A program made the position numbers and the translations under genes. This document shows positions 18,683 to 44,309 of a stretch of 46,880 nucleotides of DNA, piece after piece; the stretch's first letter is position 1, and every line of letters starts with the position of its first letter. Source of the stretch: Phoronis australis. Its lineage: Eukaryota > Animalia > Phoronida. Below the pieces are notes generated by a model. That model was not told the origin of the DNA. It ran no database searches and was given only the letters and a program-made list of their open reading frames with translations. Where the stretch lies: the NCBI GenBank assembly GCA_002633005.1, contig NMRA01000609.1, forward strand, positions 1-46,880, in the 5' to 3' direction.

Positions 18683-19255
18683 ATCCAAGATTATTGCTGA
18701 AGACATTTTTCTTGTGGTGTTTGTAAATTTCATTTGATAACGATATAGTAATAACACATAAGGAAATCGGCTTGTAACAGAGCGTTATATTTTAAATTTT
18801 AGCATCCGGCGCACATACAAGTTATGGCTGCGATATCAGCTCAAACGTTGTCGATTCGTTTTAAATTAGTTATAAGCTTCGAAACAAACTAAAAAGTACT
18901 GAAATGGTTTACCTTGTGTTTAAGCTCCTAGTTTCCAAGATATTGTAAAAATGAACAAAACTTAAATTTAAATTTATACTTTAGTGGAAATTTCCTGATT
19001 ATTTTGTGCATGTGTTATGGAATTTTATGCCCCCAAGAAGTAATGTCTGAAACCTTCACACAATAAGATATAAGATTGTAAGTGAAATGAGTGTAAAGTA
19101 GCAAGGACACCTGAAGGTTGGCCAACTTGTCCAAAATCAATGGCAGGTTATCAATCAATGCCCAATCACGGCAACGGAAACTCTGGGGTAGGACTGTGAG
19201 CGTTATTTCGTGATTTTTGTTTATTTGCTGTAGTGACATGGATTCACGAAATGAA

Positions 19256-19414
19256 CCTGGCGTGCGTTCAGTAGACGCTAGGACCTACGCTAGGACCTAG
19301 CTAAAACCTAGTCAAAGTCACGTGTTCTCATTTAAAATGCATGGCAATATCTCACGTAATCTCGCGAAGTCTTGCTTTTTAGCGAGGTCCTAGCGTTACT
19401 GAACGGGAGGCTGG
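19256..19414. mobile_element. MITE with CGTTCAGTA..CGCTAGGACCT inverted ends
   Basis: About 30-bp imperfect TIRs. An inverted copy is at 36146-36296 and a partial core is at ~26375-26460. Confidence 0.85.
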
Positions 19415-21586
19415 ATGATTAATTAAACACAAGACTATAAGACACACTGGTCATCTCCAGCTACATGTACTTATACGTCACCTTATTGATATTTCTGTAT
19501 TTTTAAGGTGGTAAATGACAATGAGGGGCATATTTAACATTTTTATTTAAAACTGTGTTTCTAGAAAACTCATTCACCTTAAAAAACCAGCACTGGATTT
19601 CGTTCCTGCCATTATAAAAATAATTGATTCATGATAACAAATCAGTTTCAATTGAAAATCTTAGAATTTAAATTATAAGATAATTATGTTATTAATCTGC
19701 CCCCAGTGCGTAACTCATATCAAGGTAAAAAACGGCTTACCTGAAGCTTGTCAAACTTCACTGTAATGCTATTAATAGTTGTGAAACTACAATATATTAA
19801 TTATAAAAAACGGTTGCCCACGCCAGTGACCTCGCATTACCAGACAAGCTGTACATCAAGCTTCGTATACACGTAGTCGCTGTGATCACATTTATTGCGC
19901 ATGAACGTTCGCATGTAGCTAAACAGCGTTGTGACTAAGTTCTAAGTTGGGTTATTTTTAGCGTAATGGTAACCTAGGGCCCAATTTGGTAACCTCTGTT
20001 GGTATAGGCCTACTACATAAATTAATTTGACCCGCTTGACAAGTAGGCCTATAACTGGATCCACTTTTGCGATTGTTCGTCCAATTATTTGTTCGCTGGT
20101 CATTTTGTCATGCAACAGCTTAAAGTTATGTGAGCTCCAAGAAAGATGTCCACCTTGATTGACGGAGGTCAAGTGCCATTAGTGGCGCCACCACATGGTT
20201 TAAAGTTATACATCATCGCATCCATTTTAGGTGTGCTTTGAACAGAAATTTGGAAGATAAGGATACCCGGATGTTATCGACTGATCTGTGTAATTAGCCA
20301 CATGTCTACAAATCCATGAATTTCATTCAGGAAACGTATATTTCTTTTTGACACCAGGAAGACTGTAGAATTTGATTCTTTTTATTTTATACCCATATGC
20401 TGTTGGTTGGTCACATGACCACTTTTTAGTAAAATTTACGGAAAGGAAAAGTAACTACAATCATAGCACAACAACGGTTTCAATAACGCAACCAAAATTC
20501 ATTTGACTGACTTCCTGAATTTCGCAAAATTAAACAAACCCAAACAAAATGAGCCTTATTCTAATTTTCGAAATAAGGAAACAAAAACCACAAAATCACG
20601 CCGACAGTGCAGGAATGTTTATAGCGCCGTCTTATAAGTAATAAATGTCTTCCAGACCTCAGGCTTTGAGTAAAGTTTATGAAAGTAAGTGCAATCATTA
20701 TTCGTGTTCTGTAATATATGGCATTCTATTGCTCTAATGCCAAGCGAGAGCAAAATTGAATTAACACAACTCCATTGGTCCCCCGAGGTCTATATGGTTT
20801 GGACCGGTCTCTATTCGTTTTAATACACGATCCCTAATTAATGCTTCTTTCCTTTGATTTTTTTCGTCCTATTCGTTTATCAAGTTCATAGTAATACTTG
20901 TCGTTTTGTACTGGCATCGTCTGCTTTGTAGTTTGGGCTTATGTTTTCAACAGTATCTGGTTGGTAATCTGGCGAATAGCGACATCTGACGTCAAGTCGT
21001 GATATTTCACGGCCAGGCTGGTCCATATTACGGTAAGTTCCACGTTTTAGGCAATCAGGGGACAGAAGTGTTAGGGGTACGTAGTGTAAAAATGTATTTT
21101 ATACTACACTATCAGCCTGACATGGCCAATACAACCGTTGAATCACCCGTATACATGTAGTTACATGTATTCAACGTGTGTTGAATAACAATTTGGCGGG
21201 GACCAGAGGTCGGTTTCGAGCCGTCGACTTAATCGCTTCGCCATTCAGCAGCTGGGTGACGACATCGTACGTGAAAATAGAATTCTCACGTGACTTGGAA
21301 TGTGGTACCACACGACTGGTTAATAACACCGAGTACGTATTTTTTGATATTACATGGGCGAATCACAAAGTAGTGCAAAGTAGAAAACCGTACGCCTTAC
21401 ATTCTACGGTCTGCAAAACACTAAAGCAACCAAACGCGCGCCAACCAAACAATGTCGGAATTCTGAGGGAATAGCGAGGTTAAAATTGACAAATCGGCTG
21501 TCGCAACTGTACGTAGGAAGGACATGTAAACAACTTCTTAAACGGACCCATCTTCGGCGGCGAATTCCATATCCACGTTCATTTAA

Positions 21587-22549
21587 ACAGTACACACCAT
21601 GGATTTTTGCACATTTTGAATTACCGGTGGCCACAAACTAAATGTATGACGTAAAATTTAGCTAAACCCATGTTTATTTTGTGTAATTAGCTCGAAATTT
21701 TGATTTCTCTTTCAATTTTGCCAATTTTCACATTTCCCGCCATGTGACGTCATGGGTTGAACACAAGAGATTAGTGACTAGCATTGAACAATGGCGGAAA
21801 GCAGGGAATTTGAAAGCGACGACGATTATGAGCAAAAATTGAACGAATACTATGAAGAAACGTACGGGAATGGTGGCCAGGATGAGGAAATGGGGTTGCA
21901 CGAAAGCGAGAATAAGTTTAATGTGGTTCCGGCTGCGTACTTTTCTACTTTGAGCCTTACGAACTGGATCCTCCCGCGAGAGAAGCGGCCTCGGGCTCGG
22001 CGAGTCAACCCAGTCATCCAACAGACGATCCTGAACTAAGAGCTGATGTTTCTGAATGATAAATATTGTCCTTTATTGAACCAGGCCTTCATCGTAACGT
22101 CTCTTGTGACTGGAGTCGAAACGCGAGTCCTCAAAGTGGGCAGAACACAGAGTGGCCCCGGACCGAATCGCTTGGTCCACGATGACGTCCCACACTCTCG
22201 TTCGGCGCACGAAGCGATGCCACTTCTGCGCAACTTTGGTATCCTTCGGAACACCGAGACGTTCTCCGCCTGGCTGCTGTTGCTGCAGCCTCCGGAAACA
22301 CATCTTTTCATCCCTCTACGAACCTTCTCGACGCTAAATGTATTTTGCTTTCTCTTCACTCTATACACTTTGTCTCTGATCCGAACAGTATGGCGAACGA
22401 CTTGGGTTCAACCCATGAGGTTGTACATAATTATTATTTTTTTCAATTTTTGCGTGTTTCTTTATGAGCTGTGCACTAAAGGCACTGAAATCTAGTAAGA
22501 TATAATAATAAAATTTATTTTGATGTACAAGAGTCATGTTGTGTACACT
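21587..22549. mobile_element. Non-autonomous Kolobok-like DNA transposon, copy A, with frameshifted THAP domain
   Basis: Flanked by TTAA (21583-86 and 22550-53), with short imperfect TIRs ACAGTACACACCATG / AGTGTACACAACATG. The minus strand from 22311 reads MKRCVSGGCSN..(frameshift)..PKD..KW..FVR..LCSAHFE, a C2CH THAP signature. A near-identical inverted copy is at 31793-32749. Confidence 0.8.
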
Positions 22550-22914
22550 TTAAACGGAGACGAGCCCCAACTAAAGAAACGCGGAGAGACTGTCTAGCTG
22601 GGCTGTCTCAAGGTCAGTACAGCGCTCGCGCGCGGGGAAGCCTTGCTGGCTGTTATTTATAAACATTTTTAAAGCTTTGATATAACAACTTCAAAGAGTA
22701 TTTATTAGATTCTAAAGTGAATATTTGCCACGAAAGCTCAGTGAATGCAATTTACAATTGTTAAGCTTAAAATAAAACTTTTGACAAAAAGTAACTGAAT
22801 TTTGTTACATTGCGCAAGCGTGTTTTTACAAAAGTTACGTCATGTGATTGAAAGTTTTACACACGTCGAGTTTTTGGCAAAAAATCGTTTTCACGGTTCA
22901 TGTGAGAAAACAAA

Positions 22915-27889: not shown

Positions 27890-30800
27890 CAACTTAAAAC
27901 TCAAGTTTTTTCAAGTATAAAACTGAAGTTTTCACAAATAAGCTTTAGTTTTAAGTAATAACTTAAGTTTTCATAAAAACTTAAGTTTTTCGTACTATCA
28001 AAACTCAGGTTTTTCTGATAACTTAAGTGTATCACATAACTTAAGTTTTTCGAATTTAAAATACTTAAGTTTTTATGATAGCTTAAGTTGATAAAAAATA
28101 ATTTCTTTGAATTTTAAAAACTTAAATTTCTTAAGTTTTTCAGAAAACTGAAGTTTTTCATGTATGGAAAACTTAAATTTTCTGAAAACTCTGACATCTG
28201 TATGTGATCCAAATTTACGTTTTCAAGTTTTGAAAAATTGAATATTGTGAAATTTTATTTTTTGTTCGAAGTTTTCCCAATTTTTCCAGAAAAATATTTC
28301 TTGTTTGTTTATGCAAAACCCATTATTTTATTAAAATGTTGGCCTGAATGTTTCCTTTAAGATTTATATAGATACAAACCGTAAAACGACGAACGTTTAA
28401 TCAGTTCACAGAACTAACTGCAGGTCTTCGTAAATTTAAATGTAGACGAACATCCGGTGACAAATAGCAGTATAAATGCATTGCAATGTCCAACCCATGA
28501 GACACTTACCTGATCAGTACAATGTCATCAACATAGTTTACACAATTTTTAACAAAACGTAGTTTTCGTGCAAGTTTCCTTTGTGTTGAGTTGTATTCGT
28601 AAGGCAGTGTCCATCGGAAGTCAACTGTTTGAATTTTATAACCGATCCGGTCAGCTTCGAAGAAAAGGATGTTTATCGGCTAGCCCACGACAATAAAGTT
28701 TATATAACAACTTGCAGAGCCTAGAAGAAGACATTTCAGGAGTTGTGGAAGTCAGGTTAGTGACAGAGAGCGGTCTAAAATCGATTGGCCACAATCGGTG
28801 CTGCGATTGATAGTCAAGTTCAGTTGTTAATTGACCTATCGCAAGCTCCGCACCCTTGAGTAATGACGACAAACAAACAAGTTTTACCCGGCAACGTGTT
28901 GTTTGTCGGGTAAAATGGCGGCTTGGAAACAAAGGTGTGTCAAGAATGATGCGTTCTGATTAGTCAGTTAAGCCGTCAATCAAAGTCCTGGCGAAAGGCC
29001 AATTGTCAGCCGCTCAAGCTGTCACATACCAACATGGACTGTAATCTGTAGGTGGATTATCTAATCTTATTATTCTAACTCGTAACATACTGCCTGAGGT
29101 CCATGAGAACGCTAGTACTCTATTATATTTCTGAGGTCTTCTGAAGTTGTGTCAGTGAGCATCAATGCAAGGGTTGGGGGCTCCTAAGGCAAAATGTAAC
29201 CATTTCGCAAGTTAGGTGTATTGGCATTGATTGTGTGTGCTTAGGTCTCTGCGTTCGTAGTAATTCTTGGTAGCTCCTGTTTTTGAAATCGCATTTCATT
29301 ACAGGTCAACAATTTGCAAGTATCACTTGCCTGGTTCTCAGAATTAGGAATCACCAATGTAACTATTTTATTGATCTGGATAACTTTTTTGTCATTTAGT
29401 TTTGATTGCCTAATTTGACCGATTGCTTAGGCTTGTAGGGATGATCTAGATTAATGAATACGAAAGGGCATCCACTACTAGTACCCAAATTGGCGTACCC
29501 CCGGAATAGGTCACAATGTACTCAAGTGAACTCTCACCAGTCAACACGTTAGCTATTGTTATGCATAGTAAAACTTATATAACTCCTATCTAATTGAACC
29601 AATTATTCAACGCAAATAAATAAAATCTGCCTGATGTGACTGAGAGGCTGGGTACATGATTTTGAATTTTTACCAGGCTGCTGTGGAATACTTAAATGTC
29701 CTAGAAGTTTGCGATATTCAGACAGAAAATTTTCATATGCAATACAAGTTCAACTGGTTTTATTACAATCAAATCTTTCAGCGACATGGTGAAGGTGTTA
29801 GTTTATCTGGGTGCAACTTGATCAAGGCGCGAGTTGAGTTGAAGATGGACTGACTAATATTCTCCCCATGATCAGGAAGGACGTATTCTTTTCCCACAAA
29901 AAACATGCTTGGAACCTCAATTTAATATCTTTGCAAATGTCAGCCAGTAAAGTGATTGGTATCAGTACAGGTTATAGTAATTTTTATTTTTACTGTACAA
30001 GAGATAAAAATGTTATTTTTATTGTAAACAATGATGGTTACGTAAGACGTACCCCTCGTGAAGACCATGCCAGTATCTTCAAGAGCGGATTCAGAAAAGT
30101 GCCAAGGGGGCCATGGCCCCGGCCTCCCTAAAATTCTGCCAGATACCATTTGGCAGTTGAAAGGGTGTGAATGTGTGACGGGCAAAGTCCTGGTTACTCA
30201 AAATCCTGGATCTGCCTCTGATCTTTACATGGATAACAGTCTCTGTAAATGGGTTATGTCTGGATTCTTAAGAAGGTTGTACATACTGTTATGTTTGCTA
30301 ATATCTCCTTATTGTTTCAGGTCTCCATTAACTTGGCGGAGTACTTGGAAGAAACAGATATGCAAACATACGCATCTAAACAATCACCACAGTGGTGGTA
30401 TTGGGCTGTCTACAACCACATGGCAGGTAGAGCTTCATGTGTTTCATTGTTTAGTTTATATCAGTGCTGCTTTAAGGTTTGAATTTGAAACAAAATGAAA
30501 AATAGTTTGCTCTAGATTGTGATACCATGGTAGGTTACCATCTGCATATTTTGTACTCAATTTGTGTAGTATAAATTTGTTTTGAATGTCGTAAGTCCAG
30601 GCTTAAAACTTTATTCAAAACAACTAGAAAACTGACCGACTGCAGTGCATGCTTAAAGTAAACTTGAACTTTTGTACTTGAATCCTGGAGAGTGATTGGT
30701 TAAGTTTTGAGTTTGAAGACTATTTTCTAGGCTTTGTATATAAGTCAGTAAGTGCATGCGACTTTTGCAATTCAGTGCTATATCAACAGCAGGATAAATA

Positions 30801-31040
30801 TCCAGCGAGTTAACTTGTCTTATACTGATAGCTTTTACCCGTCTGTTATTAAATGTTGCTGTATTTATTGCAGAGTGTTTCTTTAATAATCGTTGGATAA
30901 GGAAGACTACCCAGACAACACAACGTACGCACTTATAAACTGCAGCTCATGAATCCACGAATTCAGTTAACTGGTCTCAGAAACGTAAGTGTTTGCCAAA
31001 AACTTAAGTTTTCGTGAAGGAAAACTTAAGTTAATTTTTG
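27890..31040. mobile_element. Degraded large DNA transposon with AAAACTTAAGTTTT subterminal palindromic repeats (EnSpm/CACTA-like?)
   Basis: A dense array of AACTTAAGTT variants at 27890-28190 and two more at 30998-31040. The interior has exon-like pieces (e.g. 30321-30426 +) that do not form an intact ORF. True termini were not identified. Confidence 0.35.
30864..30869 (-). promoter_or_regulatory. Candidate polyadenylation signal AATAAA for the chlorophyllase-like gene
   Basis: First minus-strand AATAAA noticed about 270 nt past the stop codon; another occurs near 30610. Confidence 0.35.
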
Positions 31041-31134
31041 TAAGGGCATGTATAATAACGAATATCCACACCAGCAAGGCGTAAGTAACCCAGTGTGCCA
31101 CAATTCATGCTGGTTACAGTAGACGCTACCACGC

Positions 31135-31325
31135 TCATTTCAACTGGTATTCCAGCTTCATGTACGTAGCTGGAACACGTGTTCTGTCGAGGATATACTC
31201 CAGAGTAGCGTTCCTGCCTAAGGCGGTGGATACAAGAAAAGCAGAGGTTAAGCCTGAGATGTACTCTTTGTATTCTTCAAGGTTTGGATGGTCTTTTGTC
31301 ATGCACACTTTGGTCAGATGGCAGG
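31135..31325 (-). CDS. Chlorophyllase-like gene last coding exon (ACHLTKVC...ISGLTSAFL...YQLK*)
   Basis: Strong polypyrimidine acceptor TTTTTTGTTCTTTCAG|, phase 1 matches exon 6. The C..C and GLTSAFL helix motifs are chlorophyllase-like, and the exon ends in TGA. Confidence 0.88.
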
Positions 31326-34300
31326 CTGAAAGAACAAAAAAATGCAAAAAGAAGTAATTTCTGGGGTTCTTTCAAATTAAAAAGTTACTTCTGACAAGAA
31401 CACAGTTTTACGTAGAAAGTAGCTGGATATCAGAGGGGAGTAGCAAACTGGAGAGTGATGATGACCACGACAGACTGACGGCCTGACAAAAAGTAACAAC
31501 AATCATGATAATAACCTATGCGATATTTCAGACTGGCAAACACACGGAAAGTACACTAACTAAGGATAAATATAAATCGATCCAGCTAAAACAATTCAAT
31601 GCAGCAGCAATGACGCAATCCGCCAAAAACATTCTCGTTAAACATAACTCAAAATGTTCGTGATAGAATCTCAAGCGTTACAGGTACAAAACTTGACCCG
31701 CTTTTATCAACGATTTCAACAGTTTATTACCCACTCGGGCCTGTAGGGGCAAGAAACACGTTAATTAAGTCTGGTCTGGCAATCGAACTTAAAGTGTACA
31801 CAACATGACTCTATAGTACCTCAAAATAAATTTTATTATTATATCTTACTTGAATTCAGTGCCTTTAGTGAACAGCTCATAAAGAAACACGCAAACATTG
31901 AAAAAAATAATAATTATGTACAACGTCATGGGTTGAACCCAAGTCGTTTGCCATTCTGTTCGGATCAGAGACAATGTGTATAGAGTGAAGTGAAAGCAAA
32001 GCACATTTAGCGTCGAGAAGGTTCGTAGAGGGATCAAAAGATGTGTTGCCGGAGGCTGCAGCAACTGCAGCCAGGCGGGGAACGTCTCGGTGTTCCGAAG
32101 GACATCAAAGTTGAGTAGAAGTGGCATCTCTTCGTGCGCTGAACAAGAGTGTGGGACGTCATCGTGGACCAAGCGATTCTGTCCGGGGCCACTCGCCCAC
32201 TTTGAGGACTCGTGTTTCGACTCCAGTCACAGGAGATGTTACGATGAAGGCCTGGTTCAATAAAGGACAAGATTTATCATTCAGAAACATCGGCTCTTAA
32301 TTCAGGATCGTCTGTTGGATGACTGGGTTGACTCGCCGAGCCGAGGCCGCTTCTCTCGCGGGAGGATCCAGTTCGTAAGGCTCAAAGTAGAAAAGTACGC
32401 AGCCGGAAGCACATCAAACTTGTTCTCGCTTTCGTGCAACCCCATTTCCTCACCGTGGCCACCATTCCCGTACGTTTCTTCACAGTATCCATTCGATTCT
32501 TGCTCATAATCGTCGTCACTTTCAAATTCACTGCTCTCCGCCATTGTTCAATGTTAGTCACTAATCTCTTGTGTTCAACCCGTGACGTCACATGTCGGGA
32601 AATGTGAAAATTGGCAAAATTGAAAGAAAAGTCAAAATTTCGAGCTAATTACACAAAATAAACATGGGTTTAGCTAAATTTTACGTCATACATTTAGTCA
32701 GTGGCCACCGGTAATTCAAAACGTGCAAAAATTCCATGGTGTGTACTGTTTAACACCACCAGGTAATGTGTATAGGCGTGAACTCGCATGTTACAGGCCA
32801 AATAAAGGTTTGCGGTTTTCTCAGGAATTTCCACGGACCCGAAAACGAGGGGTGTTTTTTCGGGTCGCTCTATCGCGACCAAAACGCCATATGATTTCAG
32901 GCTTCCTTTCTCACATTGAAGGTGACTCCTGAGGTTGGGAACAGGCAGTTCTGTGTTGTTTGAGATCAGGCTTTAGACTTGGGCTTGTCACGTTGGATTC
33001 GTGTGGTGAACATGGTTTTAAGCTATGCTAAACTCTCCGTTCTTCTCATCCCAATAAGGAAAATTTATAATGATTCGTTAAAACCCAGTCCCAGATTTAA
33101 CTTACGTGTCGTACATTTGCTTTGGCGCGGTTCAGAGGGAAGCTTGGAAAATTTAAACTTCGCTCAGACGATAATTCAGAATTTTTTCCTTTTAACTCAC
33201 AAGCATACATGTAATTGAGTCAACGTTAGAAGCAGACGTGAACTTTTAACCAGTTCTTTGAAATATAATTGCCATGACAATCAACTGTTCCAATAGGTAA
33301 AATGCCATTGCACCTGCATTTAACCCCAATGACTTCTTTCTCATTTCCACGACTGAGCAAAAATGCGCGTACAAAAATTGACACTAATTTTATTTTGATA
33401 ATTTGCAACATCCATAAGTTGCTGTTATGGTCATACTATAACATCATCCAGTATAAGTAAATTCTGAAGTTTTGCCGTATTGCGGCTTTCATATTTGTGA
33501 CCTAATTCTCCGAACAAAAAGTGGTCAAATCACATCCCCAGAATCACAGTTCAGTATTCATGTGGGAACATTATAATCCAGCGCGCGGTGAAGCGCCACG
33601 TGACTTCTTTTTGCGTGCCACGCCACCTGTTAGCGGTAAAGCCTCAATAGGTCGAATGAGTACCTTTTGCAATGCAGGATGCATGCATTGTTTACATTAT
33701 CCGTTCTAACTGATACGATACAGTCCACCTAATTAGATATTTGCCACAGTAATAACTCCATGACCAGGGAAGTAAGAGGGGGTATTCTCAGTCGTAAATT
33801 AGCATGGTATAGATGAACTACGTGTAGCTCTTTTGAATTTTAAAGGAGTTAAACATAAATTAATACATGTACTTCAAACGTTGGTAAAGATGTGAATTGT
33901 TAATTTGCATTCTAAAGTGGGGTTCAGTGAACCTTACGCATTTCTGTATGGTAAAGTAGTCGTCGGCTAATTACCTTCCCAGCCTACGTCATCGAGTATA
34001 TCACAGTGTCCCCAGTTCTTCACTTGAAGTAAGATCTTTAGAGGGCGCCAGTTGTCGTAGAAGTGCTGGAAGTCCACTCCTTTTACGGAGCAGGGCGGAA
34101 AGAGCGGAAAATGTTGTTGCATTAGTTCGGTACCGTACATGAGTGACGGTATCGTGAAGGGTACGGTGCCATGAAGGTTAAAGCTGAACGGTTCCAAGAA
34201 AACTGACGACTGAAAAGTAGAGGGTGACCATTACAGACGCTTGACATGCGCATACGTTACAAAGTAAGCAAATTTTTGTCACAGTAAGCCTAGGTTTGAT

Positions 34301-37300
34301 CACGCATTGTGAAGCTCGGACAGGGAAGTGCTGACCCGAAGTGGTGGGGGGACTTTCAGATGAGAAGGACGGACCCAACTGCGAAGGACGGAGGACAAGG
34401 ACGGGTGTCTACTCTTATTCGGCACAGTCGCTGTGGTATAGGTAACGATTTTCTCTTGCAATGACGAGCTTTCGAAAGGGGTTTCTTGTTGTTCACTTCT
34501 GAGATGAATTGGAAACGTGAAGGTCCCGTTTTTCAACTTTTGTGGTCGTGTTTGGAGATGTTCCGAAGGAATGTTTAATAAAATCAATATGTACTTTCAG
34601 TTCAGCTCCGTAACTTTCCTGGAAAGTAACCATTTCAAAAAACTGGGCATTGCAAGGTAAAAATCGCATTCTTAACCACTGGACGTTATAAAATTGATTC
34701 TAACTTAAAAGTGAATGTATATCCTGAGTCTGGGGACATCAGGCGCCTGGTTCTCACAGCGACTGCATTGGCTTTTGTCTTTTAACTTTAGCCAAAAGTC
34801 AGAAATCTGTCTACGAATGACCAAATGTTTAATTTTTGTCTTTTAGGTTTCTCGAAACGTTTTGCCTTCTGTCAGTTAAAGCAAACAGAACTACAGATTT
34901 TTGTCTTTTGACTTCCTAGACAAATTTTCCGACTTTCAGTCTTAGCCTGATTTTCTTAAAACGGGAAAAATGGTCCGTACAATAAGATTTAGCCGGAAAT
35001 CAAATGACAAAAGCCTTTCCGAAAATTGCCCCTAGTTGGCTTGAAAGGGCTTGTCATTATTTAATGAGATGGAGTCAAGCAGCTGCGAAATTAGTCTCGT
35101 TCCGTCCTCCAGCGCGGAGTTGGATTCGCGCAAGATGAAACCAGAGCCAAGTTCCTGACTGCACTGACTTCCTTATATAGTAAGTAACGTGAATTCACTA
35201 ACTTGATAGAGGTTGCATCAGTGCTGCGCATTTACAACCATCTATCAGCGATGAATACAGTACGCGGACAGTGACCGAAATACAATTATTCAATAATGAG
35301 GGGATCAATCTCAGTGCTTGTGGACAGGGTCATGTAAGTAAATGTATGTAGTAGTCTTGTGAGAACAGTCAGCTCCTCCCAGTATGAAGGGACTTTTATG
35401 ACAGAAACTTTAAGACGAAAATCCATCTCGCTTACTTACATTGAACAACGTGAAATTCGTTTGCAGCATCCGTAATGTGACGTCAGCTCCAGAAGAGTGG
35501 CTCCCTAGTGACGTTGCATTCCATACTATGTTTATCCCCTTGCTTCTTTTGTTAATCAGGTTTTGCAAATTGAATTTCATCTGCAAAGCCAATTGCAATC
35601 TTGAAAACTTGTATTTATGTAAAACGTTTTTTCTGCCTACCGTACTGTGCGCATGCGTGTAATTAAGCCCATGTCCCTATATTCGAAAGTTGATCCATTT
35701 TTTTCAAATAAAAGTTTTGCTCATGGGTTTCATAAACAGCCCTATGTAGTTAAATTTTGTCATAGCTATCCGCTATATATGCACATGCCTCCAACTGGGT
35801 GTTTTCTGAGCGACGTTTGTCCATTGTTGGTGCTTGCCGTTGAAAATTTTTTTAAACTCCAATACACTGCAGGTGCATATCATTCGCAAATTATTCAAAA
35901 TGTGTATCTGGTTTTTGAAAAGAGTTGCAGAAGGTCTGGTACCCCTTGTACCGCTAAGGTGGGTCCATTGCATTGTTCATCTGGAACCACGTTCGATACT
36001 TTATTGGTATATAGTTAAACCCGCGCTGCGGAGCTTGAGACCTGTCTCAATGGTTTAGCACTTTGCCTCAGTGGGACTCGAACTCACGACCTTGAGTGAT
36101 GAAAGTGGAAAAATATACCACTAGACCACACTGCCTCCTCCTGTACATGCCTCCCGTTCAGTAACGCTAGGACCTCGCTAAAAAGCTAGAGATTACGTGA
36201 GATATTGCCGTGCATTTTAAATAAGAACACGTGACTTTGACTAGGTTTTAGCTAGGTCCTAGCGTAGTTCCTAGCGTCTACCGAACGCACGCCTGGTTTT
36301 AGTCACGGTCTCTTCGCATGCGCCTGATTCCAGATGTAGAGCAGTTTCTGGTGTGCACGCCGGGCCTAACTGCGCGCATATATGACATCCATTAGAAATG
36401 TTCTCCACATGTCATGACTAATGATCGTGCACGGGTTCATAACAAATAATACAAGTTACAGGGTTTCCTTTCAAAAATTACACATATTTCAATTACATTT
36501 CATTTCAAATTTTCCCCAAGTACGTGTAATAAAACATAAATCAGCAAGACCTTAGCGCCATCTTTTGCCCAACTGATACCACAGGAACTGACGGGCTACT
36601 CACCCATTGATATTGTTCGAGATACTTTTCACTTTGTGTTTTAGACAGGTCAGCAGTATCTGATGATTTCGGTAGACCCCTTGGGTTGGATAAGGCTGGC
36701 CACACAAGGTCAGATGAGATGACGACGAAGCTGTAATGTGTTTGGGTACATTTTTGAAAACGCGCATGACAACATGTACGCTGGATTCACAGCGCTAGTT
36801 CTACGATTTTAGAAATAACGCTAATTGCTCGGGGTTGAACGACGAAAAAATCAAAATTAAACTTCGACACAAATGTAAGTTCTTACTGATCCCGCCAAAC
36901 AGGAAGAGACGTCGCGCGTGTTCTTGCGATGGCATCAAACGTACATGTAGGCTAACCAGAACAAGCTTTTAGCAATGTAGGTATAAAAAATACCCAAACA
37001 AAGCGACATTGCAAAGCCTGGTTTGGTGATCTCATACACTGAGATACTTGCCATACGTAAAGTGAGCATTCCAAGATGACATTAGGACGCTTGCCGATTT
37101 GATTCACTTCAGACTTGCGGCTTACTCGATCAGTCCGGCTGCACCTACATGTAACTCGACGATCAGTGGACGATTTAATTTCACCATGAATTGATATTAC
37201 CGTGATGTGTGACATTAAAAGCTAATGACAGTATAGTTACCCTCGAGAAGCTACCAGGCTGAGGTAATCCGTGTAAATCTCGCCTTCCACGAAGCCATTA

Positions 37301-39614
37301 GCGCCCGGTACAAAGAAATACACGGCGTAGTCCCCGGGAACAACGGGATAAAATACTGAAATTAGAAACAGCGTGCAACAATAAGTTTGCATTTTTCGAC
37401 TTAGGAACTGTAACAGGCCGTTTTCCGACGTTGTTCGTGACACTGAAAATGATTCATTTTATCTTGAAAGTCACACTAAAACGCATGTGCACAGGTATAA
37501 TATCAGGCTAGGCGCGGAACATTGACCCGCATATGTCACTGCGGACGTACTATTCAAGTTGTTAACCAATAAATACATGTATTTGAGCATATATTCTTAA
37601 AGCCTCACTTCAACGGAATTTTGATATTTTAGATGAATTTGGCTAACTTTCCACTTAAATACGACTAGCCTCGGCATACTCTGTCACAATGTATTTAACA
37701 CAAGGAATTGCGCAGACTGTCCAGCTGCTTTTGCGAAACTAGTGGCTTAGTTTGATTTCGCGTTACGGCTAACTATTTTTCTCGCCGTGATGTACCTTTT
37801 ACCACCAACGTAAATTCTATTTAAATGCGAATAGTTTTTAGGTACATGTACAAATCAACTAAAAGCGTTAAATTAATTTACAAACTATTAATGTATGCAT
37901 GTATGTAAGAAGTGTGTCTAGGCGCAGTACGCAAACATATCATACGCACGATTCTTCACATTCCAATATTCCGCCCGAAATCATGATGGTTGAGAATTTT
38001 CAATAACAATAGTAAAATGGTGTCCGCGTACTTGTATATCCGAAGCATCATTTTCAAGCTTGGTTATATTCGAGGAGAATTCGCCTATCTCCGGATACAG
38101 TAGTAGATTCGAATATAGGCGCATGGGCCAACCATGCTAAATGACGTCGTATGGATTTTTCAAGCTTGCGAGATCCATGCGACGGGCCTAAGTGCGTCGC
38201 ATGGTTGTCGCCTATGGAACGCTGCCATTGTTTTCCTTTGTTGCGTCTTTGTTGGATATAACAATACAGGTCGCACGGATATCGGACCTTGCGGGCCCAT
38301 TAGGCGGCTACCGTTATCTTTATTATAAGAAAGAAAAACAAAGTGAACCGTGGATCCGCCTATCTACCGATATCTATGCGGCGAGCTTGTGACCTAATTT
38401 CCCATAAGTGTTTGAAGTGTTCCTTTAAAGAGTTCAGTTCACTCACCTGAAGAATGCAAAGGTGATTTATCGATGAGAACGTTGACCATAAACCAACGGG
38501 AGTTTAGACGAGTGCCGTTGTACGGGTTATCCCGGTACACAAATATACCTGTAATTATAAAACTGAAGATTACATTTTGCCATGCTTAAAAGAATTGCTT
38601 GCTCGTAAAGCCTAAAAAAATCTCGTCCGGGTGATGGGGTCTGAACTCGAAATTATTTTTCACATCTTCCGTTCTATTTTTCTGCGAACTCAGAATAAGA
38701 GGCCATTACCCTATACTCGAGTACATTATTTTTACGGGGAAGACTACTTCAACTTAGTTTGCACATAAAGCTGTAAGTTCGAGTCTTGACTCGAAATCTC
38801 GAGTTTTCATTCGAAATGTCGAGTTTGCAGCTGGAATATGTGGTTATCATCACGTGAGAACTTGGACTACACGGAGTTAATTTGTATAAACTAGGTGTAA
38901 ACCATAATACACGTATATTGGACCAAATACAAATAGACCATTGTCTTGAGTCCGTGCTCAAATATAACGGACAATTTTATGGATTTCGAGTTTTCAAAGA
39001 TATGAACCCGGGTTCTTCACGTGTTGATCACTTTTCCTTCAAAGCGCATTTAACGGTTCTTTCAAAGCAATGGCCGGCGTGAGGTGTAGTCACGGTCCTT
39101 TTGAAATTCTTTACATTGTATCACACGTGATCCCTAGACGGCCCTAAACTGCTTTACCCGCCGTGACTCGATGAGTTTTTAGTACGGTTCCTCCAAGGCA
39201 CACCAAACATTACTAGTCTCAGTAAATGGCTTACAGGGACGGATCCAGGATTTTAGGCTAGGGTAGAGGGGGTAGGGCAGAGTATTAGCCAGGATTTTGC
39301 CCGTCAGACATTCGCCAACCCCGATCTACCAAATGGAATTTGAGAGAATTTTAGAGGGCCCTGGCCCCCTTGGCCCTCCTCTAAATCCGCCAGTGGCATA
39401 AATCAAATCAAATCTAGAAACAACCACAAACGTAAACAAGGAAGTCTGAGACGTGCTTTATGTTGCTTGAGATTTTGTGACATGGAAAGTCAGGAGCACC
39501 ATCTAGTGTCAATAATAATGGATGGATGATCACGAATTCGGAAACTTGGATGAACATACCTGTAGTTGGTGAGATAAACGATGTCAACACTAACAGTTGC
39601 CATACACTGACCAT
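31135..39614 (-). CDS. Spliced 7-exon gene encoding a putative secreted chlorophyllase-like alpha/beta hydrolase, 321 aa
   Basis: Exons 39614-39560, 38548-38447, 37355-37241, 36730-36604, 35580-35440, 34209-33975 and 31325-31135 total 966 nt. All introns are GT-AG with matching phases (1,1,2,0,0,1) and there are no internal stops. The translation shows chlorophyllase motifs VFYPxxPGDYAV, ASRGFVVI, SHSSG, LEP, FPPC, FQHFYD and WGHCDILDD. Confidence 0.88.
31793..32749. mobile_element. Non-autonomous Kolobok-like DNA transposon, copy B (inverted; in intron 6 of the chlorophyllase-like gene)
   Basis: TTAA at 31789-92 and 32750-53. Full-length reverse-complement similarity to copy A, with the same THAP frameshift plus an extra small deletion in the LCSAHF motif. 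Confidence 0.8.
33975..34209 (-). CDS. Chlorophyllase-like gene coding exon 6 with acid (LEP) and His (GHCDILDD) motifs
   Basis: Acceptor TTTTCAG|, donor AAG|GTAATT, 235 nt. FPPC..GVDFQHFYD and WGHCDILDD resemble plant chlorophyllase FPPCAP..NHxxFF and YGHMDMLDD. Confidence 0.92.
35440..35580 (-). CDS. Chlorophyllase-like gene coding exon 5 with nucleophile elbow SHSSG
   Basis: Acceptor TTTGCAG|, donor AAT|GTAAGT, 141 nt. LGSHSSG occupies the GHSxG position (35488-35502). Confidence 0.9.
35930..36141 (-). mobile_element. tRNA-derived SINE
   Basis: Pol III A box TGGTCTAGTGG and B box GTTCGAGTCCC at tRNA-like spacing, without a complete cloverleaf. The 3' boundary is uncertain. Confidence 0.6.
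36146..36296. mobile_element. Second copy of the same MITE (intron 4)
   Basis: Reverse-complement match to 19256-19414. Confidence 0.85.
36604..36730 (-). CDS. Chlorophyllase-like gene coding exon 4 (FVVISSDLVWP...YLEQYQW)
   Basis: Acceptor TTACAG|, donor TGG|GTGAGT, 127 nt, phase 2-0. Completes the ASRGFVVI motif across the junction. Confidence 0.88.
37241..37355 (-). CDS. Chlorophyllase-like gene coding exon 3 (VFYPVVPGDYAVYFFVPG...LVASRG)
   Basis: Acceptor TTTCAG|, donor GG|GTAAC. Matches the chlorophyllase N-terminal strand and YxxxLxxxASxG motif. Confidence 0.9.
37601..38424. mobile_element. TTAA-flanked Kolobok-like non-autonomous element in intron 2
   Basis: TTAA|AGCCTCACTTCAA ... 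TTGAAGTGTTCCT|TTAA: an imperfect 13-bp TIR with TTAA on both sides. Confidence 0.6.
38447..38548 (-). CDS. Chlorophyllase-like gene coding exon 2 (GIFVYRDNPYNGTRL...SPLHSS)
   Basis: Acceptor TTACAG|, donor CAG|GTGAGT, 102 nt open in phase 1-1. Not present in the ORF track. Confidence 0.8.
39234..39395. mobile_element. MITE in intron 1 of the chlorophyllase-like gene
   Basis: TIR CAGGGACGGAT../..ATCCGCCAGTG, flanks GCTTA/GCATA, and homology to 9133-9243. Confidence 0.7.
39560..39614 (-). CDS. Chlorophyllase-like gene coding exon 1 (signal-peptide-like MVSVWQLLVLTSFISPTT)
   Basis: ATG at 39614, then a hydrophobic stretch and donor ACAG|GTATGT. Phase 1 matches the next exon. An alternative in-frame ATG lies at 39623. 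Confidence 0.7.
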
Positions 39615-39857
39615 CTTTGGCATTTCCTGAACACTCCTGTTTAATAGATGAGACGTGTTCTGCCGGATAACGTACACAAACGTCTCGTAAGTTTAATCAC
39701 GAGGCTTTATCAGTTAGTATTCTAACCTTCATCCACAGGCTACTGAGAGTCCGATCGGTCCAAAGTTTTAATACAGCTGTTGTTAGTTACAGGAAAGGCG
39801 GCTATATACTGTAAGCTTGAACCCATCACAAAATGAACTATTATTTAAAACGCTTAC

Positions 39858-40296
39858 CTTTATGAAACTCGCCTCAAATTGTCTCTTAGTTAAATTAGAT
39901 GTCAGTGATTTCAGAGCTTTCTCTGGTGAACACAAACAATTGGTTACTTAGTCGCGTACATATACATGTACTTGGGCGGCTCTAAAATGTGCATGTTTGT
40001 CTCGGCGTGTCAATTAATGCGCCGAGGACGGTCTCGATGATTATCGAGCTGTCTGTTCTTCGCCGCAAGCCAATGAAAATCCCTTCTCCTCTGAATGAGA
40101 AACAAGTTAAAAACAAATTTATTTTGGTAAGAAGTCAAAATAAAAAGAGTATAATTTACTTAGATAGATGTATCCTCAATGAACAGTGTTCACGGTGCCG
40201 AGCATCGGGTAATACGTAGCGACACGAAAACTGGAACTTACCGTTTGGTGCGCCGGGATCCTTCAGTTTTACTTGCAAAAGTTCACGTTTGACCAT
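39858..40296 (-). other. Two candidate upstream exons of the chlorophyllase-like gene (ending at 40242, and 39922-39858)
   Basis: Consensus donors ACG|GTAAGT (40241) and AAG|GTAAGC (39857), and acceptor TGTGTTCACCAG| (39923). Splice signals only; no transcript evidence. Confidence 0.4.
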
Positions 40297-40752
40297 TATT
40301 GTATGCTGCATGGTAAGGGGCACTGGAAGTCGCGTGCATCTCAGGGCCTACAGCGTTGTACTGAAAAATGCGAACTGTTGTTTTGCCCCATCATCCGTTG
40401 AAATCGCGACTGCACAATAGAAATATCCAGCAAATTCAAAATGCGAGCAAACAAAGCAGTTAAATACGGGACCAGCTCTCTTTTGTTCGATAATTGCTCT
40501 AATCTCCCATAACATGGTATATCTAGCCTGACTGGGTTGTCTGGTTTAAAATAAATGAGCTATAACATATTTTAACATAAACCAATAGCATGTCTGAAAT
40601 GCTCGTCAAATATTGATCATGTTTAGTTTTTTAATCGAGAAAATCGCGCAACTACAACCGAAGTTACGACAATCTATTCTTTCCGAACGTAGTCGCTCTG
40701 GGTTTAATCATAGATAGTCTATGGTTTAACTGTGTTCACACGTGGTCTATAA

Positions 40753-41010
40753 CAATAGGTTTATTTTATGTAACAGGCCTCCGGCCCACATTACAAATAT
40801 ATAATACATTGAGAGTACAAGATTTTCAAATCTAAATTAATTCATATCAAGGAACCCATTTCTACGTTTCTCCGCATTAACAACTTTTCTCAGGACAGTT
40901 AAATCACGAGTCTGTAGAAAATTTTTGAACACTATCTCTTCCACTTTATTGTATCTTGGTAAGAACAGCACTCGTAGATCAGAATATAAATTACTTTCGA
41001 GAAGAAAGTG
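40753..41010 (-). mobile_element. 5'-truncated LINE 3' end inserted in an older repeat
   Basis: HFLLESNLYSDLRVLFLPRY resembles the LINE ORF2 C-terminal HFLLxCxxYxxLR motif. It is followed by a stop, a short GGGCCGGAGGCCT hairpin and AATAAA. It is absent from the homologous repeat copy at ~3840. Confidence 0.7.
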
Positions 41011-42167
41011 TAAGCCTGGTAGATAATCGGCCTGCCCCCTGTTGTCCTACCAGACAAAAGACTGTGCTTGGTAGTTAATAAAGAAGCTAGATGTTATCAC
41101 ACGCTCTGATACGCCGTAAAATGTAACAATTTCGTGAACAGTAACAACTGTTACATTTTATGTCATTGTTACATTTTACGTTGCTAGGCCTCTCCTAAAA
41201 TGTAACAAGTTGTTACATTTTATGTAATTGTTACAATTTACGTCGAGTGCACATGCGAGAACTGTATCATTGTTACATTTTACGAAAGCGACGTCAAATT
41301 TCATGAATTTGCAAGGTATTCGTCACAAGGTGGAAAACCGTTCACACACTTAACGCCTTCTTTCTCGTATTGTGTGAATGAAATTCTATCAAATGTACCA
41401 GGTCGACTTTACAGATGTGTCCGTTCGTACTTTCCATGTTTTTTGAACATGAGTAGTTTAATGGTATAATAAAAATGTACAGCGTATATTTTCAACTCCA
41501 CACGAAAGGAGTTTCCAGGTTCAGGTAACAAGTTTTTCATCGTCAAAGCGTTCTTGCATTTTTTGTTAACGCTAACAAACCAATTTTTATCCGACATTAC
41601 AGTAAATACACTTCCCTTTGTAAGAACAACAATTAATGACATCGTATTTGGCTAATATTTATCGTATTTCTTCGGGAACGAACGACGATAACAAAATTTT
41701 CCATGGAGATTTCAATTTCGGAAGCCAGTTTGTTAGAAAAGATATCAGTTTTAGTCCACGATAGTTTCGTTTATTTCGGCAACTGTTTTATTGCCTTGGA
41801 GTCATCGCTAATGCAGTAATTGCCCCGCTTTACACAAAATGAGAAACCAAAGTTTCTGATGCCGACAGGTGCTGTCTACCACCTTAGTTACGAATGACGA
41901 TTTCTCAAAGACAAATAAAAGCACACATTCATTTGCCGGCAGGTTGACAGATTTTGCCAAAGCAACAGCAAAATATCGCCTATGAGAAGGGTGAGCCATT
42001 AGTGGCGGCATTGTGACGAAAGAAATATCATTGTTCCTACGATGTCAAACCTGGCTGAAACAGTGGTGGTAACAACAGGGCAAACCGTGACGTGTAAACG
42101 TAAAAATGGGATGCCTTGCACTCTGAAGGGATATTTTGCTCAAACCTGGTCTAGATCTATAGATTAA

Positions 42168-42920
42168 AGGGGCAATGATCCTTTTAAGATAAAATATGAA
42201 TTAAAATTGCTATTTGGCCAATGGTCGTTAGTTCGAAGTACAAAAAGATTGGACATTCTGTTATTAATGGACGTGAAGTCACGTGTCTCATGAGGCGCCA
42301 CTTTTTTGTGTTGCAGCTCGCAGATAAGGGAATTTGGTATATTAATCCTTTTGATGCAATGTATTTTAATCTTTTTGATGTATTACATCAAATGCTCATA
42401 TTAAATATCGCTGACTTCGACGTCGGCGGTTTTTGTTCCATACAATCAACTTTCAATGAAACCTAATTCAAATCATTCTGTTAAACCACTGTGTTTTTTT
42501 AAGAATATTGGGGCCCATTCCACATAAAATTGTTGCGTGTCTTGTATGTCCGTTACAAGCTATTCTAATGACCCGGTGACCGCAACTGACTAGTCGTTAG
42601 TTCTCAAATAATGTCTGCCTCCAGAGTTCAGCGTAACGCCATTTTGAACTTACACATCAGTTCTTTGACAAGGAATGTTTTTAAAAAGAGACAATTTTGC
42701 GGTCTGAATTCAGTACTTCGTGGCCAACTACAGATGGACATAGTTATATTTACAAATAATACAATACTTGCCGATAGTTCAGAAATAATCAATTTTTGAA
42801 TTTGGTGCTCGTCTAAACAAGATTTTAAATCTCAACCTCCTCGTTTACATAAGGTAGGCGTACTCTGCATCCACAGCTGTCAAGACGTTCCTCACAATAA
42901 TTATGAACTTAGGAGCCCCT
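42168..42920. mobile_element. TTAA-flanked Kolobok-like non-autonomous element (nested)
   Basis: TTAA|AGGGGC ... GCCCCT|TTAA. The TIR match is short. Confidence 0.5.
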
Positions 42921-43068
42921 TTAAAATCCTATTGGGACAGCACTCGCTGTCCACTTTGGAAAGCCCGATGACAATATTGAACAATAAATGAAATGATTTT
43001 AAAAACTTTGATGTTCATGATGTATCAGCACTTTGCTAAACATGTATTGTGTCCTCGTTAAATAAAGT

Positions 43069-43165
43069 TAATAATAATAATAATAATAATGATAACGAAA
43101 ACGATAACGAGTAGTAGCAGTGACAGTAATATAGTATTAATAGCAGTAACAGTAGTGATAGTAAT
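43069..43165. repeat. (AAT)n / AGT-rich microsatellite
   Basis: Direct reading of the sequence. Confidence 0.8.
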
Positions 43166-43217
43166 GTAAAACTAATAAAACTGTTAATAAGTAGCCAAAT
43201 TCATGTCGTGTCAGCTC

Positions 43218-43490
43218 GGAGGGCATTCCTATAGAAGATGTATACGAAAAGTGCTGCCCAAAAGGGTGTTTTTTCACAAAAAACTACTCTGCAAAATGGT
43301 GCCATTTTCGACATAACTGAAAGGTGCCTTTCCTGAATTTCTGAAACAAAAGTGTCCGAAAATGAGAGGTTTTACTCAAATTAGTTTCTAAATGGGTCAG
43401 TTTTTTGTACGAGCCCACTCTCTAAATGGGTAGGTATTCAAATTTTTCGGGCGCCACTCCTCGTCTAAAAATACTCCAGTACCCCCCGGC
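43218..43490. mobile_element. Degenerate MITE with ..GTACCCCCGG end (nested in the 41107-43710 element)
   Basis: CGGAGGGCATTCC start and CCAGTACCCCCGG end; a similar end occurs at ~29495-29503. Confidence 0.45.
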
Positions 43491-44309
43491 CGGGTCAGAT
43501 ACCCCTTGTTCATGACTTTGGTCATTTTCTTTGCAATATGACGTAGGTTTCGTAAAATGTAACAATTAATGGTACATTTCTCGCATGTGCGTCCGACGTG
43601 AAATTTAACAACTACATAAAATGTAACAACTTGTTACATTTTAGAAGAGGTTTAGCAACGTAAAGTGTAACAATGACGTAAAATGTAACAACTGTTACGA
43701 AATTGCTACAACCCTCAACGTCTGGTAAAGTCACTGAACGGGAAAACGCCGCCATGTATCATGGTCGATCGCGGGAGTTTGGTCTGTTTGGAGATAAATT
43801 CGAATCATTCTTCCGTGAAATACAGACATGAAAGATAGCTGTGTGTTGTACTTTTAGACTTGCGATTTCTTTCAGTTATAAACACACAAAACGTTCGTTA
43901 TCCCAGCCAGTGCCACGGAACCCGATCGGGCCCGTCGCGAACGCCCGGGACTCCCCGTCACGAACATAAACCAGCTTTAGTTGGAAACTACACCTCCAGT
44001 CACGAAAAGACTATACTGGTGAGCCAAAGAAATAATGTGCACGTAATTATCTGTAGCGCCCAAACTACTCTACTCACTGAAATACATAAAAGGCAATTTA
44101 AACGCATTTGCAGTAACGAAAATAGCACTTTATATCCAGTTTCGGCGGCACGTAGAAAATCGCGCTCAAGCGGTCAGGCCTAGGCTTAGGGGCTCAGCAG
44201 CCAACGGCAATGGGCGTGCATGTGGGATCAAACACAAGAATTTCACACATCACTCACATCACACGATTCCAATCCAACGAATAACCGGGTACGGTTGATT
44301 TTCCTTTCA

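What the first reader, a model, noticed from the sequence alone, without database searches (positions are those of the whole stretch)
31135..39614. Intact, intron-rich, probably secreted chlorophyllase-family enzyme in an animal-like genome
Seen: seven exons splice cleanly into 321 aa (MVSVWQLLVL...VFYPVVPGDYAV...ASRGFVVI...SHSSG...LEP...FPPC...WGHCDILDD...GLTSAFL). The N-terminus is hydrophobic and there are five N-glycosylation sequons (NGT, NAT, NFT, NSS, NAT). Established: chlorophyllases are Ser-Asp-His alpha/beta hydrolases characterised in plants, algae and cyanobacteria, related to cutinase/PETase-like hydrolases. Inference: this may be a gut or extracellular enzyme that dephytylates dietary or symbiont chlorophyll, or another algal ester, i.e. 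an animal pigment-processing activity. Homologues probably exist as automated annotations in marine invertebrates, but I know of no functional characterisation. The ORF track hides the gene because it is split.
Basis: partly seen in the sequence, partly recalled or inferred. Interest (0 to 1): 0.8.

Follow-up and report, generated by a model that had tools for sequence, protein, structure and literature searches.

The report
Secreted chlorophyllase-like esterase of aquatic animals
This is an intact, transcribed seven-exon animal gene for a chlorophyllase-family enzyme that is likely secreted and likely strips the fatty tail from chlorophyll eaten with algae; related genes are already annotated in many aquatic invertebrates, and we found no report of one being assayed.

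Summary
Seven minus-strand exons with GT-AG introns give 321 aa, and RNA reads confirm 3 of 6 junctions (introns 1, 4, 6). Exon 6 alone passes the Pfam Chlorophyllase cut-off. A model of the nearest relative best matches wheat chlorophyllase 8FJD. The predicted triad is Ser162-Glu186-His248, so the acid is Glu, not Asp. The gene is ordinary. Full-length relatives at about 27-42% identity occur in bivalves, gastropods, a chiton, a brachiopod, amphioxus and a brittle star, several already named 'chlorophyllase-like'. A 2025 Nature paper discusses the family's loss in land animals. Two points are added here. (1) A choanoflagellate, an amoebozoan and a chytrid lie in the same branch, and an animals-plus-plants clade is rejected (AU p 2e-81; no algae sampled), which favours old inheritance over transfer from plants. 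(2) The branch carries its own cysteine pair at two positions lining the wheat enzyme's proposed tail tunnel, and lacks Arg146. The substrate is untested: chlorophyll or pheophytin in digestion about 50%, another dietary ester about 33%. Five sequons are not above chance (P=0.10).

The parts
39560..39614 (-). Coding exon 1 (aa 1-18 plus 1 nt): the hydrophobic, signal-peptide-like N-terminus; phase-1 intron at the likely cleavage boundary
   Evidence: junction read in RNA; hydrophobicity comparison; cleavage site inferred, no SignalP available
38447..38548 (-). Exon 2 (aa 19-52): conserved start of the mature protein, sequon N29
   Evidence: (intron 1 junction)
37241..37355 (-). Exon 3 (aa 53-91): oxyanion-loop region; Ala71 at the place of wheat Phe71
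   Evidence: (weak PF07224 hit, E 0.26); its two junctions not listed in the RNA lays
36604..36730 (-). Exon 4 (aa 91-133): variable loop and long helix
   Evidence: (intron 4 junction)
35440..35580 (-). Exon 5 (aa 134-180): nucleophile elbow S160-H-S162-S-G164; conserved sequon N175
33975..34209 (-). Exon 6 (aa 181-258): acid Glu186, Phe217, Cys220, His248, Cys249
   Evidence: PF07224 E 7e-9, 35.3 bits over cut-off 26
31135..31325 (-). Exon 7 coding part (aa 259-321 and stop): Cys260, Cys266, C-terminal helix
   Evidence: (intron 6 junction)
31789..32753 (.). Repeat element of about 965 bp inside intron 6, spliced out; not part of the protein
   Evidence: 93% identical to an inverted copy at 21583-22553; THAP hit on that copy

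Best explanation
The locus is an intact, spliced and transcribed gene for a chlorophyllase-family alpha/beta-hydrolase that is likely secreted into the gut or digestive-cell lysosomes, where it likely cleaves the phytyl ester of ingested chlorophyll or pheophytin. Shown: gene structure, strand-specific splicing at 3 of 6 junctions, family assignment and conserved catalytic positions. Inferred mechanism: a signal peptide coded by exon 1 sends the protein through the ER, where it is glycosylated and forms two disulfides (C220-C266, matching the wheat active-site bond, and a branch-specific C249-C260). Ser162, activated by His248 and Glu186, attacks the ester, forms an acyl-enzyme and releases phytol plus chlorophyllide or pheophorbide. 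Inferred origin: inherited from a pre-animal heterotrophic ancestor rather than taken from plants.
For: Family: exon 6 passes the PF07224 cut-off, and 21 of 21 aligned relatives hit PF07224. Wheat chlorophyllase 8FJD is the best solved relative by profile (E 8e-27 against 7e-14 for the next, a cutinase) and by fold of the P0001 model (TM 0.79/0.84 against at most 0.64/0.80 among the other listed rows). Wheat Ser145, Asp172, His248, His144, Phe217 and Cys220/Cys264 (PMC10011514) map to Ser162, Glu186, His248, His161, Phe217 and Cys220/Cys266; that paper notes Asp/Glu variation in plant members. Secretion: 25 of 26 rows of the branch have a 9-residue hydropathy peak of at least 2.0 in the first 35 aa, the exception being a 209-aa partial protein; the two plant rows score 0.88 and 1.9. 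Digestion: a host protein annotated chlorophyllase is among the abundant intestine proteins of Gammarus fossarum and falls 2.2-fold on a granule diet lacking chlorophyll (10.1101/2024.11.06.622251). The family is lost in land lineages (PMC12804077). Abalone viscera hold phytol-free pyropheophorbide a (PMC6949322), and abalone has this gene. Origin: animals, Codosiga, Dermamoeba and Blyttiomyces lie on one side of a 100/99 branch; an animals-plus-plants clade is rejected, p-AU 1.9e-81.
Against: No activity was measured, and identity to plant enzymes is only 20-23%. Pocket residues that alter kinetics in wheat differ: Arg146 is present in 0 of 26 branch rows against 18 of 20 other rows, Phe71 is Ala here, and Leu249 is Cys. 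The closest relative is from Solemya velum and one member is from a choanoflagellate; from recall these are a chemosymbiotic clam with a reduced gut and a bacterivore, so neither is a heavy alga-eater. Expression is modest (exon-bin depth about 5-6 in X1 and X2, about 0 in X3) and the tissues are not given. The amphipod protein was not available, so its place in this branch is unchecked. Removing phytol gives a photosensitiser, so the benefit would need a further step. Among opisthokonts, cyclopheophorbide-enol formation was found only in chytrids (PMC6775998). The structure was predicted for a 42%-identical relative, not for this protein. The tree has no algal or cyanobacterial sequence.
Confidence: 0.5

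Rival explanations
1. It is a secreted digestive or lysosomal esterase whose main substrate is another dietary ester (galactolipid, carotenoid acyl ester, wax or cutin-like polyester), with chlorophyll at most a side substrate.
For: The next-best structures are cutinases and PETases, and the wheat site overlays the cutinase site (PMC10011514). Arg146 is lost, Phe71 is replaced and a new Cys pair sits at the tail-tunnel positions. Members occur in organisms recalled as not alga-eating, and related genes occur in non-photosynthetic Myxococcota, Planctomycetota and Bdellovibrio. An abalone esterase has been invoked for a fucoxanthin-pyropheophorbide ester (PMC6949322).
Against: The match to chlorophyllase is far better than to PETase (21 of 21 against 5 of 21 members; best E 7e-29 against 9e-8). 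The active-site Cys pair, His161 and Phe217 are kept. The amphipod gut protein tracks a leaf diet.
Confidence: 0.33
2. It works outside digestion, for example as a haemolymph, mantle or immune-responsive esterase.
For: A Biomphalaria gene named chlorophyllase-1 is listed as down-regulated in an infection comparison (PMC13619432). A pearl-mussel shell-colour transcriptome mentions it (PMC12897141). It responds to cold in five crustaceans (PMC13163145). Its level differs strongly among X1, X2 and X3.
Against: These are annotation-level mentions without localisation or assay. The only protein-level localisation seen is intestine.
Confidence: 0.1
3. The gene reached animals by horizontal transfer from plants or algae.
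For: Proposed for crustaceans in PMC13163145 (passage only). Plant clusters are the next-nearest Atlas clusters to P0001. No algal sequence was in the trees, so an algal donor is untested.
Against: Choanoflagellate, amoebozoan and chytrid members group with animals. Animals-plus-plants (p-AU 1.9e-81) and animals-plus-bacteria (2.6e-15) are rejected on 22 rows. Members span molluscs, a brachiopod, an echinoderm, a hemichordate fragment and amphioxus.
Confidence: 0.05
4. It is a pseudogene or a chance stitching of open frames.
For: Three junctions were not listed in the RNA lays, the depth is low, and intron 6 holds a repeat insertion.
Against: No stop or frameshift in 321 codons, three exact junctions read, 349 bits against at most 1.5 for shuffles, and 4 of the 5 codons that vary in the reads change silently.
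Confidence: 0.02

Closest known systems
Invertebrate 'chlorophyllase-1/2-like' proteins (Solemya KAL5006262.1, Haliotis XP_046546133.1, Liolophura XP_064601091.1, Crassostrea XP_022337363, Lingula XP_013416535.1, Branchiostoma XP_035697624.1)
   Same: Same length (about 300-345 aa), full-length alignment at 34-42% identity, hydrophobic N-terminus, H-S-x-G elbow, Glu acid, GHC His motif and four conserved Cys. It groups with Solemya and Liolophura at 97/87.
   Different: No relative is closer than 42%. Ala at position 71, where most have Leu or Phe. It lacks the extra Cys pair around the nucleophile elbow seen in the oyster, scallop, Aplysia, Lingula and amphioxus members. No second copy was found in this window.
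Plant chlorophyllase, EC 3.1.1.14 (Triticum aestivum, PDB 8FJD)
   Same: Fold (TM 0.79/0.84 for the P0001 model), order and position of the triad, His before the nucleophile, Phe217-Pro-Pro-Cys220 loop and the active-site Cys pair.
   Different: Signal-peptide-like N-terminus. Glu for Asp172, Ser for Arg146, Ala for Phe71, Cys/Cys for Leu249/Ile260. First motif Gly replaced by Ser. The Ca2+ ligand Asp255 is Val here. About 20-24% identity. Activity untested.
Cutinase/PETase family (PF12740; LCC, IsPETase, Thermobifida cutinases)
   Same: Lidless alpha/beta-hydrolase core and open site (PMC10011514).
   Different: Much weaker match. The chlorophyllase acid sits after strand beta6, not beta7 (PMC10011514), and Glu186 aligns with that beta6 acid.

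Membership tests
Chlorophyllase family (Pfam PF07224) | Score above the curated cut-off | tested here: met
   Exon 6 alone: 35.3 bits against cut-off 26, E 7e-9; 21 of 21 relatives hit it
Chlorophyllase family (Pfam PF07224) | Alpha/beta-hydrolase fold closest to chlorophyllase | tested here: met
   Tested on a stand-in: the model of P0001 (42% identical, pLDDT 89.7) ranks 8FJD first; profile-profile probability 99.9% to plant and bacterial members
Chlorophyllase family (Pfam PF07224) | Ser-acid-His triad with the acid after strand beta6 | tested here: met
   Ser162, Glu186 and His248 align with wheat Ser145, Asp172 and His248; the acid is Glu in 18, Asp in 7 and Gly in 1 of 26 branch rows
Plant-type chlorophyllase (EC 3.1.1.14) | Strict G-H-S-x-G-G motif with Arg after the nucleophile | tested here: not met
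   Here S-H-S-S-G-A; Arg in 0 of 26 branch rows against 18 of 20 other rows
Plant-type chlorophyllase (EC 3.1.1.14) | Active-site disulfide Cys220-Cys264 | tested here: met
   Cys220 and Cys266 are present and conserved in 25 and 26 of 26 rows; the bond itself was not measured
Plant-type chlorophyllase (EC 3.1.1.14) | Pocket residues Phe71, Phe72, Phe216, Phe217, Leu249, His144 | tested here: inconclusive
   His161 and Phe217 kept, Leu for Phe216, Ala for Phe71, Cys for Leu249; Phe72 lies at a 2-residue insertion
Plant-type chlorophyllase (EC 3.1.1.14) | Hydrolyses chlorophyll to chlorophyllide and phytol | not testable with these tools
   Needs an enzyme assay; none was listed for an animal member
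PETase/cutinase family (PF12740) | Best family and structure match | tested here: not met
   5 of 21 relatives, best E 9e-8, against 21 of 21 and 7e-29 for PF07224; exon 6 did not hit it
Secreted glycoprotein | Cleavable signal peptide and used N-glycan sites | tested here: inconclusive
   Hydrophobic N-terminus in 25 of 26 rows and sequon N175 in 15 of 26; no SignalP on hand; the sequon count is not above chance

The most novel reading that the evidence does not exclude
This secreted branch, shared by animals, choanoflagellates, amoebae and chytrids, is the eater's own chlorophyll-dephytylating enzyme: the step that makes pheophorbide in grazer guts and opens the cyclopheophorbide-enol detoxification route, whose genetic basis was stated to be unknown (PMC6775998). 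Its branch-specific Cys249-Cys260 pair would reshape the phytol tunnel and tune it to pheophytin in acidic compartments.
Probability: 0.25. Interest if true: 0.7.

Novelty: new member of a known kind. Interest (0 to 1): 0.33.

Why it matters
The locus itself is one more member of an annotated family, so it is not surprising. The family matters because a simple assay could settle whether grazers make pheophorbide with their own enzyme or with the food's enzyme. That bears on the use of pheopigments as grazing markers (recalled), on the photosensitising pyropheophorbide of abalone viscera (PMC6949322), and on the unexplained loss of the family in land animals (PMC12804077). The choanoflagellate, amoebozoan and chytrid members also argue against a published suggestion of transfer from plants (PMC13163145), although no named crustacean or algal sequence was in our trees.

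Tried and rejected
No genome is held for the window, so copy number and synteny are unknown; tblastn found no second copy within the window. The word-index search with exon 6 against longer proteins gave 0 of 20 candidates; the HMMER search found 45. The word-index search with P0001 gave only 2 hits. No match in plasmids. The run index listed no RNA holder, which is not evidence either way. The first RNA lay at 90% likeness was swamped by repeats and showed no exon junction among the rows printed. The Atlas search with exon 6 alone was uninformative (best named rows 0.89). Exons 2, 4, 5 and 7 alone do not hit PF07224. A Pfam scan of 251 stop-to-stop frames of 55 aa or more (of 567 frames of 40 aa or more; 8 frames starting in the low-complexity stretch near 15.3-16.0 kb left out) gave 3 hits: exon 6, one THAP domain and one sub-threshold phage-family hit judged chance. 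The sequon count as evidence of glycosylation was rejected as not significant. The first 45-row tree finished only as a quick tree with a long-branch warning and was redone on 31 rows. Searches for chlorophyllase with 'digestive gland' gave 0 papers and with zooplankton plus pheophorbide 1 unrelated paper. No complex prediction was run.
Full report
1. Observation. The region was read. Seven minus-strand exons (39614-39560, 38548-38447, 37355-37241, 36730-36604, 35580-35440, 34209-33975, 31325-31135) give 966 nt, i.e. 321 codons and one stop. All six introns are GT-AG, 510-2649 nt, in phases 1, 1, 2, 0, 0, 1. Three raw-read RNA runs under the same species label were laid on 30700-40140 at 97% likeness. 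Junctions were listed exactly at intron 6 (9, 10, 0 reads), intron 4 (8, 2, 2) and intron 1 (2, 4, 0; reported four bases off with the equivalent cut noted). All 37 reads have the first mate on +, which fits a minus-strand RNA in most stranded libraries. Bins holding exons 6 and 7 have depth 4.7-5.9 in X1 and X2 and 0 in X3, and unique intron bins are about 0. Junctions 2, 3 and 5 were not listed. They are supported only by splice signals and by a gap-free alignment to a profile of 21 relatives (349 bits, against at most 1.5 for 200 shuffles). Six read variants fall in five codons: four change silently and one turns Phe136 to Ser, a small residue of the kind most relatives have there. The five sequons exist but are not above chance (P=0.10).

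2. What it is. Exon 6 alone passes the Pfam Chlorophyllase cut-off (35.3 bits against 26, E 7e-9). A HMMER search with exon 6 found 45 proteins. Full-length ones align to the spliced product at about 27-42% identity. Look-ups of 30 proteins (27 of those 45 and 3) and the names shown gave Solemya, Tegillarca, Crassostrea, Mya, Potamilus, Pecten, Mizuhopecten, Haliotis, Aplysia, Biomphalaria, Liolophura, Lingula, Branchiostoma, Amphiura and a Saccoglossus fragment. Several entries are already called 'chlorophyllase-1/2-like'. The Atlas places P0001 in a 91-member cluster, commonest Mollusca. All 21 aligned relatives hit PF07224, and 5 of 21 hit PETase weakly. Wheat chlorophyllase 8FJD is the best solved relative by profile (E 8e-27) and by fold of the P0001 model (pLDDT 89.7; TM 0.79/0.84). 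The window protein itself was not folded.

3. Active site. Using the wheat numbering in PMC10011514 (passages) and the alignments, the triad is Ser162-Glu186-His248. His161, Phe217 and the active-site pair Cys220/Cys266 are kept. Arg146 is absent in all 26 rows of the branch, against 18 of 20 plant, bacterial and outgroup rows. Phe71 is Ala here, mostly Leu or Phe in relatives. Leu249 and Ile260, which the paper places near the proposed tail tunnel, are both Cys in 24 of 26 rows (not in the two chytrid domains) and together in 0 of 20 other rows. A second disulfide is inferred from this co-conservation and was not measured. In wheat, L249F raises KM, I260F changes little on chlorophyll a, and F71A shifts preference towards pheophytin. 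The natural Ala71 here is therefore a weak hint towards pheophytin. A hydrophobic N-terminus is shared by 25 of 26 rows, and exon 1 ends where the conserved mature sequence begins. Secretion or lysosomal targeting is likely but was not tested with a predictor.

4. Origin. Trees used the window protein, named animals, unnamed relatives, the three protist or fungal sources, 2 plant rows and bacterial rows, most. The careful tree had 31 rows; left out were a partial chiton protein, two long branches and 12 near-redundant rows. It separates plants plus bacteria from all the rest at 100/99 and groups the window protein with Solemya and Liolophura at 97/87. On 22 named rows under LG+G4, the AU test rejects animals-plus-plants (p 1.9e-81) and animals-plus-bacteria (p 2.6e-15), while animals alone form one side with weak support, 78. 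These tests were run after the earlier trees had been seen. The tree is unrooted, has only two plant rows, and has no algal, cyanobacterial, cnidarian, sponge or named crustacean sequence. Old inheritance among heterotrophic eukaryotes is the simplest reading, but an algal source is not excluded. The host is an animal, probably a mollusc or close lophotrochozoan (inference from the tree).

5. How it most likely works. It is likely a secreted or lysosomal serine esterase that meets algal pigment during digestion and releases phytol (about 50%). For this: the family match and kept catalytic core; a host 'chlorophyllase' among abundant intestine proteins of Gammarus fossarum that falls 2.2-fold on granules lacking chlorophyll (10.1101/2024.11.06.622251, passages; its supplementary tables were not seen, so branch membership is unchecked); loss in land lineages (PMC12804077, section 7 and peer-review passages; the term was found only in the review file among 4 supplements, so the species list was not seen); and pyropheophorbide a in abalone viscera (PMC6949322, passages). 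Against: the altered pocket; members in Solemya and a choanoflagellate (their diets are recalled, not from a call); modest expression in samples of unstated tissue; a product that is itself a photosensitiser; and cyclopheophorbide-enol formation seen among opisthokonts only in chytrids (PMC6775998, passages). The main rival is a general dietary-ester hydrolase (about 33%). A non-digestive role (about 10%) rests on annotation-level mentions (PMC13619432, PMC12897141, PMC13163145; one passage each). An oyster SNP study also lists the gene as an outlier under balancing selection (PMC4169597, passages).

6. Known or new. It is a member of PF07224 and of the already annotated invertebrate branch. 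It fails the strict plant motif, so it should be called chlorophyllase-like until assayed. Seven searches pairing chlorophyllase with animal, gut or pigment terms listed no assay of an animal member. That judgement rests on titles and abstract starts for the papers not opened, and the library lacks most subscription journals. The passages searched in the two structural papers held no mention of animals. Verdict: a new member of a known kind.

Noticed in passing
window 31789-32753 and 21583-22553: Two inverted copies (93% identical) of an element of about 965 bp, with imperfect terminal inverted repeats and TTAA at both ends. The copy at 22 kb has a THAP domain above the Pfam cut-off, and RNA reads from many divergent copies pile on the intron 6 copy. 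Likely a non-autonomous DNA transposon; TTAA plus THAP recalls Kolobok (from memory, untested).
   Followed up: partly
window 35572-35573: RNA reads carry Ser at codon 136 (the 35573 change is in 8 of 8, 3 of 3 and 2 of 2 reads) where the window has Phe; relatives have mostly small or polar residues. The window may hold a rare allele or an error.
   Followed up: partly
window 39803-39808: A TATA-like hexamer about 190 nt upstream of the ATG. Reads reach at least 39637 and depth is 0 beyond 39835, so the transcript may start in between. Weak.
   Followed up: no
window 41600-43535: RNA depth skewed to one strand (13.8 and 14.4 against 0.5 and 1.7 at 43052-43535 in X1 and X2; low in X3), with a read-start cluster at 43396 in X2. 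No Pfam hit in frames of 55 aa or more. Possibly a minus-strand exon of another transcript.
   Followed up: no
window 15275-15916: A degenerate trinucleotide-based tract open in several frames (Ala/Thr-rich on the minus strand). Probably a low-complexity repeat; a mucin-like exon was not tested.
   Followed up: no
P0014 (Blyttiomyces, 1419 aa): Annotated as Rad17 but begins with two tandem chlorophyllase-like domains, each with its own hydrophobic start; probably merged gene models.
   Followed up: partly
alignment A1: Many members (oyster, scallop, Aplysia, Lingula, amphioxus, Codosiga) have Cys on both sides of the nucleophile elbow, while the group holding the window protein, Solemya, Liolophura and Haliotis does not. 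This suggests two old subtypes.
   Followed up: partly
L001-L015: The bacterial chlorophyllase-like genes found come from Planctomycetota, Myxococcota, Bdellovibrio and Bradymonadales assemblies, several groups recalled as predatory; they keep the plant-type Arg motif.
   Followed up: no
window 36149-36298, 39270-39315, 40472-41271: Short high-copy repeats with further copies at 19254-19411, 3692-4102 and 43568-43756.
   Followed up: no
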